From contig JBAZRH010000002.1 of the NCBI GenBank assembly GCA_041663045.1, positions 73,179 to 113,698 of the forward strand: a stretch of 40,520 nt of DNA. The letters run 5' to 3'. The DNA comes from Minisyncoccota bacterium (GTDB lineage: Bacteria; Patescibacteriota; Minisyncoccia; Phycocordibacterales; GWA1-40-21). The translations under genes were made by a program, and so were the position numbers. Of the stretch, positions 13,577 to 33,963 are shown piece by piece. Under the pieces are notes generated by a model. It made no database searches. It was given only the letters and a program-made list of their open reading frames with translations, and was not told where the DNA came from. The stretch's first letter is position 1; every line of letters starts with the position of its first letter.

Positions 13577-13690
13577 AGACTTGCGAGATGTCGTTTTTTT
13601 GGAGACTCTCGGAGCACGACTGGTGCGAGAGGGAGCAAATTTTTAGCAAAAAATTATGCGTGCTCCAAAAAGGCGACATCTCGCAAGTCT
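13577..13690. repeat. Repeat family A, copy 1: 78-bp core (13596-13673) inside a 17-bp perfect terminal inverted repeat
   Basis: Core identical to 15683-15760; arms agacttgcgagatgtcg / cgacatctcgcaagtct; starts 2 nt after the methyltransferase stop. Confidence 0.9.
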
Positions 13691-14841: not shown

Positions 14842-15642
14842 TCAGGAAACATCAAAAACTCTTCCTGAATTTTCTAAAAGTTGTAATCGCACCCTTTCTG
14901 GATCTTCCCCGCGGATTTCAGCGATTTTTTTATAAACTTCCACTACATAGGCCGGCTCATTGCGCTCTCCCCTGTGTGGGATAGGCGTAGCAAAAGGAGA
15001 ATCCGTCTCGGCGTGGATTTTATCAAGCAGAATTGTTTTTATAACTTTATCAAAGTCTCTGACATAGGTGATAATGCCGGGGAAAGAAATTGTAAAACCG
15101 AGGTCAATAAAATTCTCGGCGGTTTTGAGATTTGAAGTGAAGAAATGCAGATTGCCAAAAACTTTTCCTTCATATTTTTTGAGAATTTCATAAGTGTCGT
15201 CGTAAGCCTCACGAATATGAAGCATTAAAGGTTTTTTGTATTTGATGGCAAATAAAATATGTTTTTCAAATTCGGCTTTTTGGCGAGATTTTTCTGCTTC
15301 TGTCTTCCTTATTCCGCGATTATCTGCGTCCAGTCCGCGTGGTTCCGCGTAGTCGAGACCACACTCACCTATCGCCACCACTTTCGGACTTTTTACGAGC
15401 TTTTCATATTCTTTTTCATCAAATACTTCGCCAGAATTATCATCTGGATGTGCACCAATGCAAGCCCAGACATTTCCATTTGCTTCAGCAATTTTCACCG
15501 CTTCTTTTGAACTTTCCAAACCTGTGCCGATAGTAATAGTCGCCACACCGGCATTTTTCATCCTTTCCAAAACAGCATCCCTGTCGGTGCCATAGCTTTC
15601 AAAATCTAAATGTGAGTGAATGTCTATGTACTTCATTTCCAT
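14842..15642 (-). CDS. tatD: TatD-family 3'-5' exonuclease/DNase
   Basis: IDIHSHL, IGAHP, AIGECGLDY, MLHIR, LHFF, ETDSPF..P...RG..NEP. Confidence 0.93.
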   Translation of the reverse strand: MEMKYIDIHSHLDFESYGTDRDAVLERMKNAGVATITIGTGLESSKEAVKIAEANGNVWACIGAHPDDNSGEVFDEKEYEKLVKSPKVVAIGECGLDYAEPRGLDADNRGIRKTEAEKSRQKAEFEKHILFAIKYKKPLMLHIREAYDDTYEILKKYEGKVFGNLHFFTSNLKTAENFIDLGFTISFPGIITYVRDFDKVIKTILLDKIHAETDSPFATPIPHRGERNEPAYVVEVYKKIAEIRGEDPERVRLQLLENSGRVFDVS

Positions 15643-15672
15643 TTTCGTTATTTAATGTTTATAGGCGAGCGA

Positions 15673-15768
15673 AATAGTATTCTTTTTGGAGACTCTCGGA
15701 GCACGACTGGTGCGAGAGGGAGCAAATTTTTAGCAAAAAATTATGCGTGCTCCAAAAAGGATACTATT
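15673..15768. repeat. Repeat family A, copy 2: same 78-bp core (15683-15760) with a different outer stem
   Basis: Core identical to copy 1; arms aatagtat / atactatt; flanked by gcgagc on both sides; just after the metG stop. Confidence 0.9.
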
Positions 15769-15778
15769 GAGCGAGCCA

Positions 15779-17332
15779 CTACTCTACCCGTAAGAACAAC
15801 GGTTTCTCCGGATTTTTATCTTCTTTTATCAAAGTTAAAATCGCTTTTGAGGTTTCCGGCATTATTGGCAAAAGTTTAAGGGTAATTCCTCTCAAATGTG
15901 TGAGAAGATACACCAAATCTTTTTCTCCTCCAACTTTATCTGTCTTTATCTTTGCAAAAGGTTTTTCTTTTTGAATATATCCGTCAAGTGATTTTATATC
16001 CGCCCAGATTTCATCGCAATAATTTTTGATTTCAAATTTCTCAAGAAAATCTACTTTCATATCCGAAGACCAGAATTCAGAAGCTGTATCACCCACTTTC
16101 ACGCCATTTACCGTCGCCATTTTCATAATCCTACTCACCAGATTCCCCAAACCATTTGCAAGATTGGCATTGTAAGCTTCTTTGAAAGATTCAGCAGACA
16201 TCGGGCCATCTTCAAAAGTATTTATTTCTCTTGCGACAAAATATCGCAGTGCATCTGTGCCGTATTTTTGTATTAGCTCTACCGGACCGACGACATTGCC
16301 GATACTTTTGCTCATCTTCACTCCACCAGGGCCAGTAACAAAGCCATCTATCACGACCGTCTTTGAATTCGGCAAACCACAAGCCATAAGCATTGCTTGC
16401 CACATTGCAGACTGCTGGCGAAGATTGTCTTTTCCACAGTATTGCACCATACCGCCGGTATTTACATGCCATTTCTCATACTTCTTCATATCGCTCGGCC
16501 AGCCGATCGCCGAAACATAGTTTACAAGTGCATCAAACCAGACATACATTGTGTGTTCGCTATCTCCCGGCACTTCTATACCCCATGGCATTTTGCTCTT
16601 TAATCTTGAAATACTGAAATCCTGCAAACCTCTTTTCACAAAAGCTTTTATCTCATTGAATCTAAAATCTGGAATCACAAAATCCGGATTCTTCTCATAA
16701 TATGCCAAGAGTTTTTCGCCAAATGCGGAAAATCTAAAAAAGTAATTCTCTTCGTCGCGGATTTCAAGAGTGAGATTCGGATGATCAGGGCATTTGCCGT
16801 CTGTAAGGTCGGAATCTGTCTTTTCAAGCTCGCAACCGACGCAATATTTCGTTTGATAATTCTTTTTATAAATATAGCCATTCTTATCGCAAACTTTCCA
16901 AAAATCTTCGGCTGTTTTTATATGATTCTCGTCTGTCGTCCTTATGAAATTGCGAGTAATACCCTCTTCTTCTGTAAGTCCAAGAAGTTTTATAAGCTCT
17001 TTGAATTTGCCGGTGTAGAAATCGACAAATTCTTGTGGTGTCTGCCCAGCTTCTTTTGCTTTTTGAAAAATCTTTTGGCCATGCTCATCTGTGCCGGTAT
17101 TAAAAAACACCTCATACCCCGTGAGCTTTTTGTAGCGAGCGATAATATCCGCACGCACCATTTCAAGAGCATGCCCCATATGCGCTTCGGCATTTACATA
17201 CGGCAGAGTAGTAGTTATGTAGAAGTAGCCTTTGGCTCTTATAGTTCGACTTCGCTCGGACATCGTGCCCACATCAGAATGTGGTCGTGCCGCTCCTCGC
17301 TCGTCGAAATAGAATAATTTTTTCCCTTTCAT
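15779..17332 (-). CDS. metG: Methionine--tRNA ligase (short form), with a ~30-aa N-terminal insertion
   Basis: YITTTLPYVN..HMGH, GTDEHGQK, YCVGCE..CPDH knuckle, YVWFDAL, KMSKS. ATG overlaps the upstream TAA (TAATG). Confidence 0.96.
   Translation of the reverse strand: MKGKKLFYFDERGAARPHSDVGTMSERSRTIRAKGYFYITTTLPYVNAEAHMGHALEMVRADIIARYKKLTGYEVFFNTGTDEHGQKIFQKAKEAGQTPQEFVDFYTGKFKELIKLLGLTEEEGITRNFIRTTDENHIKTAEDFWKVCDKNGYIYKKNYQTKYCVGCELEKTDSDLTDGKCPDHPNLTLEIRDEENYFFRFSAFGEKLLAYYEKNPDFVIPDFRFNEIKAFVKRGLQDFSISRLKSKMPWGIEVPGDSEHTMYVWFDALVNYVSAIGWPSDMKKYEKWHVNTGGMVQYCGKDNLRQQSAMWQAMLMACGLPNSKTVVIDGFVTGPGGVKMSKSIGNVVGPVELIQKYGTDALRYFVAREINTFEDGPMSAESFKEAYNANLANGLGNLVSRIMKMATVNGVKVGDTASEFWSSDMKVDFLEKFEIKNYCDEIWADIKSLDGYIQKEKPFAKIKTDKVGGEKDLVYLLTHLRGITLKLLPIMPETSKAILTLIKEDKNPEKPLFLRVE
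17243..17311. repeat. Palindromic element in frame within the metG 5' end
   Basis: TTCGAC...GTCGAA arms, internal ccacATCAGAATgtgg hairpin (17269-17284), duplicated GAGCGA and GCACGA motifs. Confidence 0.65.
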
Positions 17333-18519
17333 TAGCTTTGATTTTCTGAGATTTGTTCTCTACTCTTCCAAAAGAGATGCTTCCTCCTTTCTAGATCATC
17401 TACAAATTCCATTATGGTTGAGACAATCGGAACAGAAAGGATTATACCTATAAAACCAGCAAGCTTGGCACCAATAATAAGCGAAAGTATAACAAGTATC
17501 GGGGAGACTCCGACGATTTTCTTCACAACAAGAGGGTAAATGAGATGATTTTCAAATTGTTGAATAATTATATAAAGTCCAGTAGTTATCAAAGCAAGCG
17601 TTACTCCCCCACCTACAAATGCTGTCATAATACCTGGTATAGCAGAAAGTACTGGACCAAAGACCGGGATAATTTCAAGAAGTCCGGCGAGAACAGCAAG
17701 CAAAAGAGCGTTTTTTACTCCAAGAACCATAAGACCAAGATACACGAGTACAGCCACGAGAATCCCAAGAAGCATTTGTCCCTGCATCCAATAACCGATC
17801 TTTGTCTGCGATCTCTTCCATAAATCTACAATATATTTTTCGTGTCTTACCGGACTTATTAGTCCTAAGAATTTTGCCACACCATCTTCTTGCACAGCGA
17901 GATAAAATGAAAGTACTATTATCAATGTAAATGACAGGAGTCCTCCGAACACTGTGCTTACCATTTTTATCAAGCCGTCTGATACATTTGAGGCAATATC
18001 TTGTATGCTCCTTATCAAATCACCGAGACCAAAAGAGGCCGATTTTGAGACGGATTCTAAGGTTGATTTGATCTGATCGTTTGTTGCGTTCTTTGCCAGT
18101 TGTTGAGGGTTATTTATTGCATTAGAAATATCCTGTACAGCTTTTTGTGAGGTTGTAACATTGCCTTGATCAATATTTAAGGGATTCCAAAGTGATGTTG
18201 TCTCAAGGTATTGAGGTATTGATGAAAGAAAACTCGAAGCCTCACTCAATATTGAAGGAATAAAGAAATAAAAGAGACCAGCGAAAATTCCAAAAAGGCC
18301 GAGGTAAGTAACAATAGCGGCTGGGATACGAGAAAGTTTATACTTACGAAACCATTTTATAAGAGGCTCTATACCGGAAGCGATCACGACAGACACCAAG
18401 ACAACGAGTACGATGTCTTTTATATAGTACAGAAACCATAAACCAAGTATTATCAAAAGGCCTTTAAATATTGATCCCGGAGTTATGTTGATTGTTAATC
18501 CTTTATTGTCTGTTTCCAT
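17332..18519 (-). CDS. AI-2E family transporter (UPF0118/PerM)
   Basis: Multi-TM; LSFYLAVQEDG, YWMQGQ, GLLEIIPVFGP, IIQQFENHLIYPLV.KK.VG.SP..VILSL.IG. Confidence 0.9.
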   Translation of the reverse strand: METDNKGLTINITPGSIFKGLLIILGLWFLYYIKDIVLVVLVSVVIASGIEPLIKWFRKYKLSRIPAAIVTYLGLFGIFAGLFYFFIPSILSEASSFLSSIPQYLETTSLWNPLNIDQGNVTTSQKAVQDISNAINNPQQLAKNATNDQIKSTLESVSKSASFGLGDLIRSIQDIASNVSDGLIKMVSTVFGGLLSFTLIIVLSFYLAVQEDGVAKFLGLISPVRHEKYIVDLWKRSQTKIGYWMQGQMLLGILVAVLVYLGLMVLGVKNALLLAVLAGLLEIIPVFGPVLSAIPGIMTAFVGGGVTLALITTGLYIIIQQFENHLIYPLVVKKIVGVSPILVILSLIIGAKLAGFIGIILSVPIVSTIMEFVDDLERRKHLFWKSREQISENQS

Positions 18520-32112: not shown

Positions 32113-32358
32113 ATGGATGTAAACAATACAAATAAAAATGGTTCGGGGGCGATAATAGGAGCTATAATCGTGATCGTTGTCCTTATCGCTGGGGGGTTCT
32201 ACTTCTACACCCAGAGAATAAACAAGCAGAGACAATTTGAAGCGATGAAAAATACGGTTACGCAATCTACTTCTGTAACAAAGGATATAGATTCTTTACT
32301 CATCGAGGCCTCGTCGACAGATCTAAATAATCTAGGCGATGGAATAGAAAATCTATAA
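32113..32358 (+). CDS. Small single-TM hypothetical protein
   Basis: GAIIGAIIVIVVLIAGGFYFY TM followed by a polar tail. Confidence 0.7.
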   Translation: MDVNNTNKNGSGAIIGAIIVIVVLIAGGFYFYTQRINKQRQFEAMKNTVTQSTSVTKDIDSLLIEASSTDLNNLGDGIENL

Positions 32359-32551
32359 AAGCTCGCTCGTATCACCATTTTTCATCAGTGTGCCTTCACC
32401 CCAAAGAAAATCATAGTCGCTGTTCTATACGAAAAATCAAGAACTCGCTGTATCAGAATACAGCTCAAACAACTTGATTTTTCTAAACAGCTCCTTGATT
32501 TTACTTGGGGTTCTCGGCAATGATGAAAAATGGTGATATTCGCTCGCTTAC
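32355..32551. repeat. Repeat family B, copy 1 (197 bp, nested hairpin, 18-bp terminal inverted repeat)
   Basis: About 95% identical (10 mismatches) to 33767-33963; arms tatcaccatttttcatca / tgatgaaaaatggtgata; ATCAGAAT apex at 32452-32459. Confidence 0.9.
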
Positions 32552-33766: not shown

Positions 33767-33963
33767 ATAAAAGCTCCCTCATATCACCATTTTTCATCAG
33801 TGTGCCTTCACCCCAAAGAAAATCATAGTCGCTGTTCTATACGAAAAATCAAGAACTCGCCACATCAGAATGTGTCTCAAACAACTTGATTTTTCTAAAC
33901 AGCTCTTTGATTTTACTTGGGGTTCTCGGCAATGATGAAAAATGGTGATATTCGCTCGCTTAC
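33767..33963. repeat. Repeat family B, copy 2
   Basis: Direct repeat of 32355-32551 at offset 1412; apical stem altered by three compensatory pair changes. Confidence 0.9.

What the first reader, a model, noticed from the sequence alone, without database searches (positions are those of the whole stretch)
17219..17314. Apparent in-frame palindromic insertion in metG, reminiscent of Rickettsia palindromic elements
Seen: MetG reads MKGKKLFY-[FDERGAARPHSDVGTMSERSRTIRAKGYFY]-ITTTLPYVN, i.e. 30 extra codons bounded by a repeated FY (TTCTA, 90 bp apart). The DNA has TTCGAC/GTCGAA arms and the same cacATCAGAATgtg hairpin as repeat B copy 2. The TAATG overlap with the upstream gene supports the long start. 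Established: MetG normally begins a few residues before YITT, and Rickettsia palindromic elements (RPEs) insert in frame into genes. Inference: the intergenic element family also invades essential coding sequences and creates new peptide.
Basis: partly seen in the sequence, partly recalled or inferred. Interest (0 to 1): 0.7.

Follow-up and report, generated by a model that had tools for sequence, protein, structure and literature searches.

The report
Mobile hairpin inserted in metG start
A 90-base hairpin-forming piece of repeated DNA, from a family spread through ultra-small Patescibacteria and not found in Rfam or the papers I searched, has landed in frame at the start of the essential methionyl-tRNA synthetase gene, and related hairpins have landed at the same six bases in other lineages.

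Summary
MetG (15779-17332, minus strand) carries 90 extra bases (17219-17314), in frame and without a stop codon. They lie between two copies of TTCTAY (the Phe-Tyr codons). A 77%-identical relative shows the empty site base for base, and of 120 homologues only one other has an insert there.

The insert is a clean member of a Patescibacteria-wide hairpin family: variable outer stem, invariant core GAGCGAGGAGC...GUCCGAGCGAAG, variable apical hairpin. A model built without the window copy scores it 54.7 bits (E 4e-17). The stems covary. Rfam has no such family, and I found no paper on it.

Most copies are intergenic or abut tRNA genes, so the metG copy is unusual. The same TTCTAY site was nevertheless hit again by the same family in a Yanofskybacteria lineage. 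There the element is out of frame and a new TTG start follows it. A related but distinct hairpin also hit this site in a third lineage, in frame and with no alternative start.

AlphaFold2 builds the first Rossmann strand from the second Phe-Tyr copy and leaves residues 1-34 as a low-confidence tail.

Best reading: a non-autonomous mobile element with target preference, tolerated as an N-terminal extension. The mobilising enzyme is unknown and translation of the insert is untested.

The parts
15779..17332 (-). metG (methionyl-tRNA synthetase), 517 aa including the insert
   Evidence: ORF; Pfam tRNA-synt_1g at 9.6e-92; 120 homologues
17309..17314 (-). Left copy of the duplicated target, TTCTAT (Phe7-Tyr8 of the ancestral N-terminus)
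   Evidence: The empty site in L372 has a single TTCTAC.
17219..17224 (-). Right copy of the duplicated target, TTCTAC (Phe37-Tyr38). It is identical to the empty-site sequence and forms the start of Rossmann strand beta-1.
   Evidence: the AlphaFold2 model has strand E36-41
17242..17311 (-). Core hairpin of the element, a full-length match to family model R1
   Evidence: cmsearch 54.7 bits, E 4.1e-17, model positions 1-66 of 66. The window copy was not used to build the model.
17303..17308 (-). Outer stem, 5' arm TTCGAC
   Evidence: It pairs with 17245-17250.
17292..17302 (-). Invariant 5' core motif GAGCGAGGAGC
17269..17284 (-). Apical hairpin CCACAT-TCTG-ATGTGG, 15 of 16 bases identical to the apex of repeat B copy 2
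17261..17263 (-). Internal in-frame ATG, the alternative start. It lies in the 3' strand of the hairpin.
   Evidence: Its context is GC-rich and structured, unlike other starts in the window.
17250..17261 (-). Invariant 3' core motif GTCCGAGCGAAG
17245..17250 (-). Outer stem, 3' arm GTCGAA
17225..17244 (-). Tail CTATAAGAGCCAAAGGCTAC, a small degenerate second hairpin. It corresponds to the ATATAGG...CCTAT second hairpin of two-hairpin family members (L205, L237).
17330..17334 (-). TAATG overlap of the AI-2E transporter stop codon with the ancestral metG start
   Evidence: The same overlap occurs in L002 and L372.
15664..15777 (+). Repeat A copy 2, directly after the metG stop codon. Its base is GGC-GAGCGA-A...T-GAGCGA-GCC, the same GAGCGA x GAGCGA module, but it is not a hit of the family model.
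32355..32551 (-). Repeat B copy 1, a 197-nt long hairpin. Its base is AAGC-GAGCGA-...-GAGCGA-GCTT and its apex is CTGTAT-TCTG-ATACAG.
33767..33963 (-). Repeat B copy 2. Its apex is ACACAT-TCTG-ATGTGG, the metG hairpin with one mismatch.

Best explanation
The 90 bases are one copy of a small mobile element without a gene of its own. It consists of a hairpin with a conserved bipartite core, plus the remnant of a second hairpin. It inserted at the hexamer TTCTAY that encodes Phe-Tyr just before the first Rossmann strand of MetRS, and it duplicated 5-6 bases of the target.

The gain is a multiple of three and has no stop codon in frame. The duplicated Phe-Tyr also rebuilds strand beta-1. The enzyme therefore stays intact and acquires a disordered tail of about 34 residues: the eight ancestral codons plus about 26 of the 30 added codons, whose last residues already enter beta-1.

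Translation most likely still starts at the ancestral ATG 17332, coupled to the upstream gene through TAATG.

What is shown: the insertion, the target duplication, family membership, covariation of the stems, and repeated hits at the same site.

What is inferred: mobility in trans by an unidentified enzyme, a target preference for T-rich TTCTAY-like sites, the start codon used, and the absence of any role for the added peptide.
For: Insertion and target duplication. Empty and filled sites match base for base, with the TTCTAY duplication. The 91% and 77% relatives lack the insert.

Family membership. The core pattern occurs in about 30 Patescibacteria loci, each with an outer stem and a different apical hairpin. 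The model built without the window copy scores it 54.7 bits.

Covariation. In the outer stem 79% of cells pair, against 53% in shuffles and 32-43% with slid partners, and all 8 pairs show double changes. RNAalifold finds 14 of 19 pairs with compensatory changes.

Genomic context. Most copies are intergenic or abut tRNA genes. Some genomes hold several copies.

A second empty/filled pair at the same hexamer. L378 is empty and L135/L376 are filled.

A third lineage. L001/L133/L270 carries a different hairpin at the same site, of 90 or 87 nt, in frame and with no internal start codon.

Protein model. AlphaFold2 gives mean pLDDT of 49, 61 and 37 for residues 1-30, and strand 36-41 uses the second FY.

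Start context. It favours ATG 17332.
Against: No transposase, nuclease or integrase has been linked to the family.

No empty-site allele appears in the source sample's contigs, so there is no sign of current mobility.

The orthologous copy in L135 and L376 is 63/71 identical while four-fold sites of metG are only 39% identical, and its differences are compensatory. That points to selection on the fold, which a purely selfish remnant does not predict.

Three hits at one hexamer could also reflect a cis function at the metG 5' end.

Translation through the insert is untested.
Confidence: 0.68

Rival explanations
1. Same insertion, but MetRS is now translated from the internal ATG 17263 (MSERSRTIRAKGYFYITTT...). 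The ancestral start and the 5' half of the hairpin would then be an untranslated leader or a short upstream reading frame.
For: An in-frame ATG exists 23 codons downstream. In the L135/L376 lineage a new start downstream of the element is used and annotated: TTG, with P0121 100% identical to my TTG-start translation of L135.
Against: ATG 17263 lies in the GC-rich 3' strand of the hairpin, whereas nearly all starts in this window sit in AT-rich, SD-less contexts like that of ATG 17332. The TAATG coupling is conserved. The upstream 23 codons are open and in frame, which I estimate happens by chance only about 10-17% of the time. In L001/L133/L270 the insert has no in-frame start codon, so read-through is required there.
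Confidence: 0.2
2. The hairpin is kept at the metG 5' end because it acts in cis on the mRNA or the DNA. It could control translation initiation or coupling, act as a processing or stability element, or serve as a protein-binding site. Mobility would only be how it arrived.
For: The L135/L376 orthologous copies are about 89% identical over the element while synonymous sites are saturated. The outer-stem changes are compensatory (AC/GT to TT/AA), and GAGCGA changed to GAGTGA on both strands, which gives G.U pairs only on the sense strand. The same hexamer was hit in three lineages, and the two R1-family copies lie in the same orientation as metG. The sense strand folds better than the antisense strand in 31 of 32 copies.
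Against: Only about 1-2% of sampled metG genes carry anything there: 1 of 72 loci and 1 of 120 proteins. Family copies elsewhere lie in either orientation relative to neighbouring genes. The strand bias comes mostly from the invariant core. In the variable stems it is weak: 18 versus 11, p = 0.056, and 22 versus 15 G.U pairs. The window's 91% relative does well without the insert.
Confidence: 0.15
3. The element is not read as codons. Ribosomes hop from the left Tyr codon to the right one, as with mitochondrial 'byp' elements or T4 gene 60, or the RNA is cut out and rejoined. Either way the normal MKGKKLFYITTT N-terminus is restored.
For: Matching Phe-Tyr codons flank a GC-rich hairpin in an AT-rich genome in every lineage. 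The out-of-frame L135/L376 copies keep the old start ATGAAGAATAAATTTTAT unchanged. L124 has a 1-nt deletion in the insert and no alternative start.
Against: Three of five lineages keep the insert stop-free and a multiple of three (90, 90 and 87 nt). My estimate for that happening without selection for read-through is about 0.01. No stop codon follows the take-off codon. L135 has a TTG start 3 nt after the stop of the old frame, so ordinary coupling suffices. L124 comes from a MAG I take to be a long-read assembly, where a single-base indel may be an error. No RNA data could be found.
Confidence: 0.03
4. Assembly or binning artefact: a chimeric join inside metG.
For: Only one sample holds the window sequence.
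Against: A single contig spans the site at even depth with no differences. The junctions are a clean target duplication. Analogous inserts occur in independent assemblies from other studies: L001, L133, L270, L135 and L376.
Confidence: 0.01

Closest known systems
Rickettsia palindromic elements (RPE; Ogata et al. 2000, as tabulated and discussed in PMC3184786)
   Same: Both are palindromic repeats of about 100 bases with no gene of their own, in a reduced genome. Both are found between genes and also fused in frame inside protein-coding genes, where they add a peptide that the protein tolerates.
   Different: The phylum is different and I have no evidence of sequence relatedness. Here only a 23-base bipartite core is conserved, while all stems covary. 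A 5-6 bp target duplication is visible. The coding copy sits at the very N-terminus, so it acts as an extension rather than a surface loop. The same site was hit repeatedly in separate lineages.
Bacterial MITEs (e.g. Nezha, Correia elements, QMITE1/2; PMC3184786, PMC5896051)
   Same: Both are short and non-autonomous, fold into a long stem-loop, show empty and filled sites between relatives, are flanked by short direct repeats, and occasionally give in-frame fusions with genes.
   Different: No parent insertion sequence with matching ends is known. The terminal inverted repeats are not conserved in sequence. The outer stem varies and covaries, and the conserved part is internal. Some copies use the adjoining tRNA 5' end as one strand of the outer stem.
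REP/REPIN elements mobilised by RAYT transposases (PMC3733652)
   Same: Both are hairpin repeats, mostly extragenic, with a short conserved motif at the foot of a variable stem. Both occur singly or in pairs.
   Different: The element has no GTAG or CGTC head. It is longer (60-200 nt). A coding-sequence copy exists. Presence of a RAYT gene could not be tested.
Translational bypass elements ('byps' of Magnusiomyces mitochondria; T4 gene 60). From my own knowledge.
   Same: Both are GC-rich hairpin insertions in AT-rich coding sequence, flanked by matching codons.
   Different: The window copy is in frame and stop-free, so no bypass is needed. No stop codon follows the would-be take-off codon.
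Structured GC-rich elements next to tRNA genes, and in-frame hairpins in Patescibacteria, noted earlier in this scan (unpublished AI notes)
   Same: Same phylum and, for the tRNA-linked elements, the same genome. They are GC-rich and have covarying stems. Copies abut tRNA genes, and inverted plus direct copies of the flank occur. One note describes GAGCGA(A/G)G octamers.
   Different: Those notes describe other windows and I could not read their sequences. Identity with the R1 family is a lead, not a result.

Membership tests
Patescibacteria core-hairpin family defined here (model R1) | Bipartite invariant core GAGCGAGGA(GC) ... (G)TCCGAGCGAA in one strand | tested here: met
   Exact at 17302-17292 and 17261-17250. 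cmsearch 54.7 bits, E 4e-17, with a model built without this copy.
Patescibacteria core-hairpin family defined here (model R1) | Outer stem directly flanking the core, and an apical hairpin between the core halves. Both are variable in sequence but paired. | tested here: met
   TTCGAC/GTCGAA and CCACAT/ATGTGG. Family-wide covariation is shown.
Patescibacteria core-hairpin family defined here (model R1) | Multiple copies within one genome | not testable with these tools
   Only one copy lies in the 40.5-kb window. Other genomes hold 2-3 copies among the loci fetched.
MITE | Target-site duplication shown by an empty/filled site comparison | tested here: met
   TTCTA(Y) in the window versus L372. 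TTYTAT in L135/L376 versus L378.
MITE | Terminal inverted repeats shared with an autonomous insertion sequence | tested here: inconclusive
   Inverted arms exist but vary between copies. No parent element or transposase was identified. Viral contigs gave only chance-like hits.
Rickettsia palindromic elements | Sequence membership in RPE-1 to RPE-10 of Rickettsia | not tested
   No RPE consensus was at hand and Rfam has no matching family. The host is a Paceibacteria-type CPR bacterium, so membership is not claimed.
Rickettsia palindromic elements | In-frame presence inside protein-coding genes, with the reading frame kept open | tested here: met
   90 nt with no stop codon. The L001 and L270 inserts of 90 and 87 nt are also open.
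REP/REPIN-RAYT | Conserved GTAG or CGTC tetranucleotide at the 5' foot of a 20-40 nt palindrome | tested here: not met
   The foot reads TATTTCGAC-GAGCGA. There is no GTAG or CGTC head and the element is 60-200 nt long.
Translational bypass elements | The insert breaks the frame, has matching take-off and landing codons, and a stop codon right after take-off | tested here: not met
   The window insert is in frame and stop-free, and TAT is followed by TTC. Only the flanking Tyr codons fit.
Class I methionyl-tRNA synthetase (host gene) | tRNA-synt_1g domain with an intact HIGH-type motif after strand beta-1 | tested here: met
   Pfam 308 bits. AHMGHALE follows FYITTTLPYVN. The model has pLDDT above 84 from residue 41 onward.

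The most novel reading that the evidence does not exclude
The family is not passive junk but the visible product of an undescribed, site-selective hairpin-insertion system of Patescibacteria. Its invariant core would form two tandem G.A/A.G steps around two G-C pairs plus GGA/UCC. That core would be the handle of an unknown enzyme or RNA-guided mechanism that places the hairpin at defined sequences, namely the TTCTAY|AT of metG and position +1 of tRNA genes. After insertion, the fold of the sense strand would be maintained by selection. The evidence for this is the compensatory changes in the L135/L376 copies and the G.U pairs that form only on the sense strand. The element would then have an RNA-level role in expression of translation-apparatus genes.
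Probability: 0.2. Interest if true: 0.75.

Novelty: new variant of a known kind. Interest (0 to 1): 0.55.

Why it matters
The finding shows, with an exact empty site, that essential genes of genome-reduced CPR bacteria take up selfish or structured DNA and turn it into new N-terminal peptide. This was described for Rickettsia but, as far as I could search, not for Patescibacteria.

It also gives this element family a precise definition: a bipartite core, covarying stems and a covariance model. With that definition the family can be searched for directly.

The repeated hits at one hexamer of metG and at the first base of tRNA genes make the question of what moves and recognises these hairpins testable.

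For annotation, it warns that odd N-terminal extensions or shifted starts of CPR housekeeping genes may hide such elements.

Tried and rejected
1. Scanning genome contigs with the 14-base apical hairpin gave only random hits in unrelated phyla. The pattern was too short and one scan was wasted.

2. Long (about 20 nt) target duplication. The sequence before the right FY looked like a diverged copy of the N-terminal codons in four lineages. Local alignment scores were no better than cross-lineage pairs or shuffles (p = 0.59, 0.14, 0.03, 0.62). Only the 5-6 bp duplication is supported.

3. Protein word search with residues 1-40 of the window MetRS, to find other in-frame copies in the same frame, gave no hit.

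4. Rfam gave nothing, neither at gathering thresholds on the window and 11 family loci nor at E <= 10 on 17150-17400.

5. Link between the elements and the 23S-rRNA-IVS-protein gene that occupies the metG-tatD spacer in L002. That gene sits in its own AT-rich inverted repeat, with no GAGCGA module. Rejected.

6. Empty-site alleles in the source sample: none in the contigs. Contigs drop rare variants, so absence is not shown.

7. RNA data for the L135 copy: only tiny SOLiD runs without the sequence.

8. Viral contigs gave six pattern hits, all in GC-rich contigs and without an outer stem, so they are probably chance.

9. Strand test on the variable stems alone was not significant.

The window's own genome could not be scanned for further copies or for candidate enzymes.
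Full report
**Observation**

The minus-strand ORF 15779-17332 encodes a 517-aa class I methionyl-tRNA synthetase. Its N-terminus reads MKGKKLFY-FDERGAARPHSDVGTMSERSRTIRAKGYFY-ITTTLPYVN.

On the minus strand, TTCTAT (17314-17309) and TTCTAC (17224-17219) lie 90 bp apart. Between them are the arms TTCGAC/GTCGAA and the hairpin CCACAT-TCTG-ATGTGG. That 16-mer recurs with one mismatch at the apex of repeat B copy 2. Two matches were found against 0.02 expected.

**Is it an insertion?**

The 120 nearest homologues (65-91% identity, Paceibacteria/Minisyncoccia-type CPR bacteria) are mostly about 480-490 aa long. Where the N-terminus is complete, they begin M-x(1-12)-FYITTT. The 91% relative reads MQKKDSRDFYITTT, and several 75-77% relatives read MKDKKLFYITTT, which is the window's sequence minus the insert.

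The DNA of one of these (L372/L373) gives the empty site exactly. It reads AAAAAATTATTCTAC|ATAACTAC, against AAAAAATTATTCTAT[84 nt]TTCTACATAACTAC in the window. So 90 bp were gained, including a 5-6 bp duplication of the target.

The stop/start overlap TAATG with the upstream AI-2E transporter gene is also present in the insert-free relatives L002 and L372. ATG 17332 is therefore the ancestral start.

A contig of the source run spans the site at even depth.

**What the insert is**

By my own estimate about 135 matches are expected by chance in 596 Gb, and most hits do lie in GC-rich genomes without any hairpin. About 30 hits lie in AT-rich Patescibacteria contigs, which make up only a small fraction of the collection.

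These Patescibacteria hits all share one architecture:
- an outer stem directly flanking the core, often TTATTTYGRC/GYCRAAA;
- the invariant halves GAGCGAGGAGC and GTCCGAGCGAAG;
- between the halves, a hairpin whose sequence differs from copy to copy;
- in longer members, one or two further GC-rich hairpins downstream.

The structure is supported as follows.
- In the outer stem 79% of cells pair, against 53% in shuffles and 32-43% with slid partners. All eight pairs show changes on both sides.
- RNAalifold gives this order: outer stem, GA opposite GA(A), two G-C pairs, GA opposite GA, GGA/UCC, then variable stems. Fourteen of 19 pairs show compensatory changes.
- GAGCGA is thus paired with itself through two tandem G.A/A.G steps. 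That last point is my reading of the consensus.

A covariance model built from 26 copies without the window copy matches 17242-17311 over its full length at 54.7 bits, E 4e-17. It finds no other copy in the window.

The tail CTATAAGAGCCAAAGGCTAC resembles a reduced version of the second hairpin of two-hairpin members such as L205 and L237.

Rfam 15 has no matching family. Full-text searches found no description of such elements in CPR bacteria.

**Relation to the window's other repeats**

Repeat A copy 2 (15664-15777) and repeats B1 and B2 (32355-32551, 33767-33963) are long hairpins whose bases carry the same GAGCGA x GAGCGA module. B2 also shares the apical hairpin. The family model does not detect them. 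I regard them as relatives at the level of a shared module, not as the same family.

**Where family copies sit**

Most copies are intergenic. Only the metG copy is embedded in a long, recognisable gene.

Several copies abut the first base of a tRNA gene on the opposite strand, with the tRNA's acceptor 5' strand serving as one strand of the outer stem. These are L163 (Ile), L166, L210 and L249 (Thr), and L172 (Pro).

Some genomes hold two or three copies among the loci fetched. In 693 kb around 98 Patescibacteria metG genes, the model found only the L135 copy and one truncated copy. The family is therefore patchy and of low density.

**The same site was hit again**

A pattern tying GAGCGAA to the FYITTT codons found further cases.

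*The L135 lineage (a Yanofskybacteria MAG) and L376/L377 (MetRS 80% identical to L135's).* These carry a full R1 element at the same place, scoring 55.7 and 46.3 bits.
- Their relatives begin MKNKFYITTT.
- L378 shows the empty site ATGAAGAATAAATTCTAT|ATTACAACC.
- In the filled genomes the old start ATGAAGAATAAATTTTAT is followed by 71 nt of element and then TTCTATATCAC. The gain is 77 nt, which is out of frame.
- The old frame stops at a TAA 3 nt before a TTG that gives MKTFYITTT. The NCBI protein P0121 is 100% identical over 100% of my TTG-start translation.

*The L001/L133/L124/L270 lineage.* A different hairpin, also with GAGCGA motifs but not an R1 hit (14 bits), sits between TTCTAT and TTTTAT.
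- It is 90 nt in L001/L133 and 87 nt in L270.
- It is in frame, and the insert contains no in-frame ATG, GTG or TTG, so it must be translated.

Elsewhere the site is empty: 71 of 72 further metG loci and 118 of 120 proteins.

So there are three lineages, each with a duplicated Phe-Tyr hexamer. The two R1 copies have the same orientation. Relatives with an empty site are shown for the window and L135 lineages, which indicates independent events at one preferred target. Permissiveness alone does not explain this, because the 4-8 codons upstream should be equally permissive.

**Consequences for the protein**

AlphaFold2, run with 40 aligned sequences, gives mean pLDDT 85.9. Blocks of ten residues from the N-terminus score 49, 61 and 37, and confidence then rises. 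The first long strand is residues 36-41 (YFYITT), so beta-1 is built from the right-hand copy.

The insertion therefore behaves as an N-terminal extension. That explains why an essential enzyme tolerates it.

**Which start codon?**

Genes of this window mostly lack a Shine-Dalgarno sequence and start in AT-rich contexts. ATG 17332 fits this pattern. ATG 17263 lies in the GC-rich 3' strand of the hairpin.

Three of five lineage variants keep the insert open and a multiple of three. I estimate about 0.01 for that outcome without selection. I therefore favour read-through from 17332, at about two to one. This is inference only.

**Is the hairpin merely tolerated?**

Between L135 and L376, four-fold sites of metG are 39% identical and the coding DNA is 75% identical. 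The element is 63/71 identical. Six of its eight differences lie at paired positions:
- AC/GT became TT/AA in the outer stem.
- GAGCGA became GAGTGA on both strands. This keeps G.U pairs on the sense strand only.

This argues for selection on the fold in that lineage, or for recent exchange of the segment.

Over whole hairpins the sense strand is more stable in 31 of 32 copies, but that comes largely from the invariant core. In the variable stems the bias is weak: 18 versus 11, p = 0.056.

I keep a cis-acting role as a rival at about 0.15.

**Mechanism**

I commit to a non-autonomous mobile element that makes a 5-6 bp duplication at T-rich TTCTAY-like targets and is moved in trans by an unknown enzyme. 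The conserved double G.A core is the likely recognition module.

The idea of a long (about 20 nt) duplication was tested and not supported. Ribosomal bypass or RNA excision is not excluded for the out-of-frame copies, but it is unlikely.

**Limits**

Copy number in this genome, identity with the tRNA-trailing elements noted earlier for this genome, and candidate enzymes could not be examined.
- No transcript or protein data exist for these organisms in the runs I could reach.

**Verdict**

This is a real, well-delimited, in-frame insertion of a member of an apparently undescribed Patescibacteria hairpin family, at a recurrently used target in metG. It is the Rickettsia-palindromic-element phenomenon in a new phylum, with a differently built element. 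I score interest as moderate to good and class it as a new variant of a known kind.

Noticed in passing
L002:5736-6176 versus window 15642-15779: In the 91% relative, the metG-tatD spacer holds a 121-aa gene (Pfam 23S_rRNA_IVP, weak bAvd) enclosed by a roughly 30-nt AT-rich inverted repeat. The window has repeat A copy 2 at the same place. The spacer seems to be a landing site for different small elements.
   Followed up: partly
L124 (= L364) versus L001/L133, around the FY site: The upstream gene and the insert are about 95% identical, but identity drops to about 70% at or within 150 nt of the right edge of the insert. It returns to about 96% some 2.3 kb downstream. So metG (HIGFAM type versus HMGHAL type) and part of tatD were replaced by recombination, with one breakpoint at or near the insert boundary.
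   Followed up: partly
L124, insert upstream of FYITTT: A 1-nt deletion (GAGCGAAAAG to GAGCAAAAG) puts the ancestral start out of frame, and no alternative start exists. This may be a sequencing error (I take the MAG to be a long-read assembly) or a broken or bypassed gene.
   Followed up: no
L135:6864-6923 and L376:2436-2495: The old MetRS start MKNKFY is kept unchanged upstream of the out-of-frame element. Its frame ends at a TAA 3 nt before the new TTG start. This looks like a leader peptide that couples translation through the hairpin.
   Followed up: partly
L163, L166, L210, L249, L172: Family copies begin exactly at the first base of tRNA-Ile, tRNA-Thr or tRNA-Pro genes on the opposite strand. 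The 7-nt acceptor strand forms the outer stem, and a further direct copy lies downstream (L210).
   Followed up: partly
L204:5613-5738: Two identical family copies lie in tandem, 77 nt apart, and a third begins behind them, forming a small array.
   Followed up: no
L142, L168, L177, L246, L253 (GC-rich Acidobacteriota, Gemmatimonadota and other contigs): These contigs carry a different repeated palindrome, (GT)CATTCCGAGCGAAGCGAGGAATC. Its loop has the same GAGCGAAGCGAGGA letters, and it occurs several times per locus. It may be an unrelated REP-like family or a distant cousin.
   Followed up: no
window, starts of ORFs of 200 aa or more: Only about 3 of 22 long ORFs have an AGGA/AGGAG-like Shine-Dalgarno sequence. 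Most start in A/T-rich contexts, which suggests SD-independent initiation in this genome.
   Followed up: no
window 13577-13690: Repeat A copy 1 has the identical 78-nt core of copy 2, but its outer arms are quite different and perfectly complementary (AGACTTGCGAGATGTCG...). It lacks the GAGCGA module.
   Followed up: no
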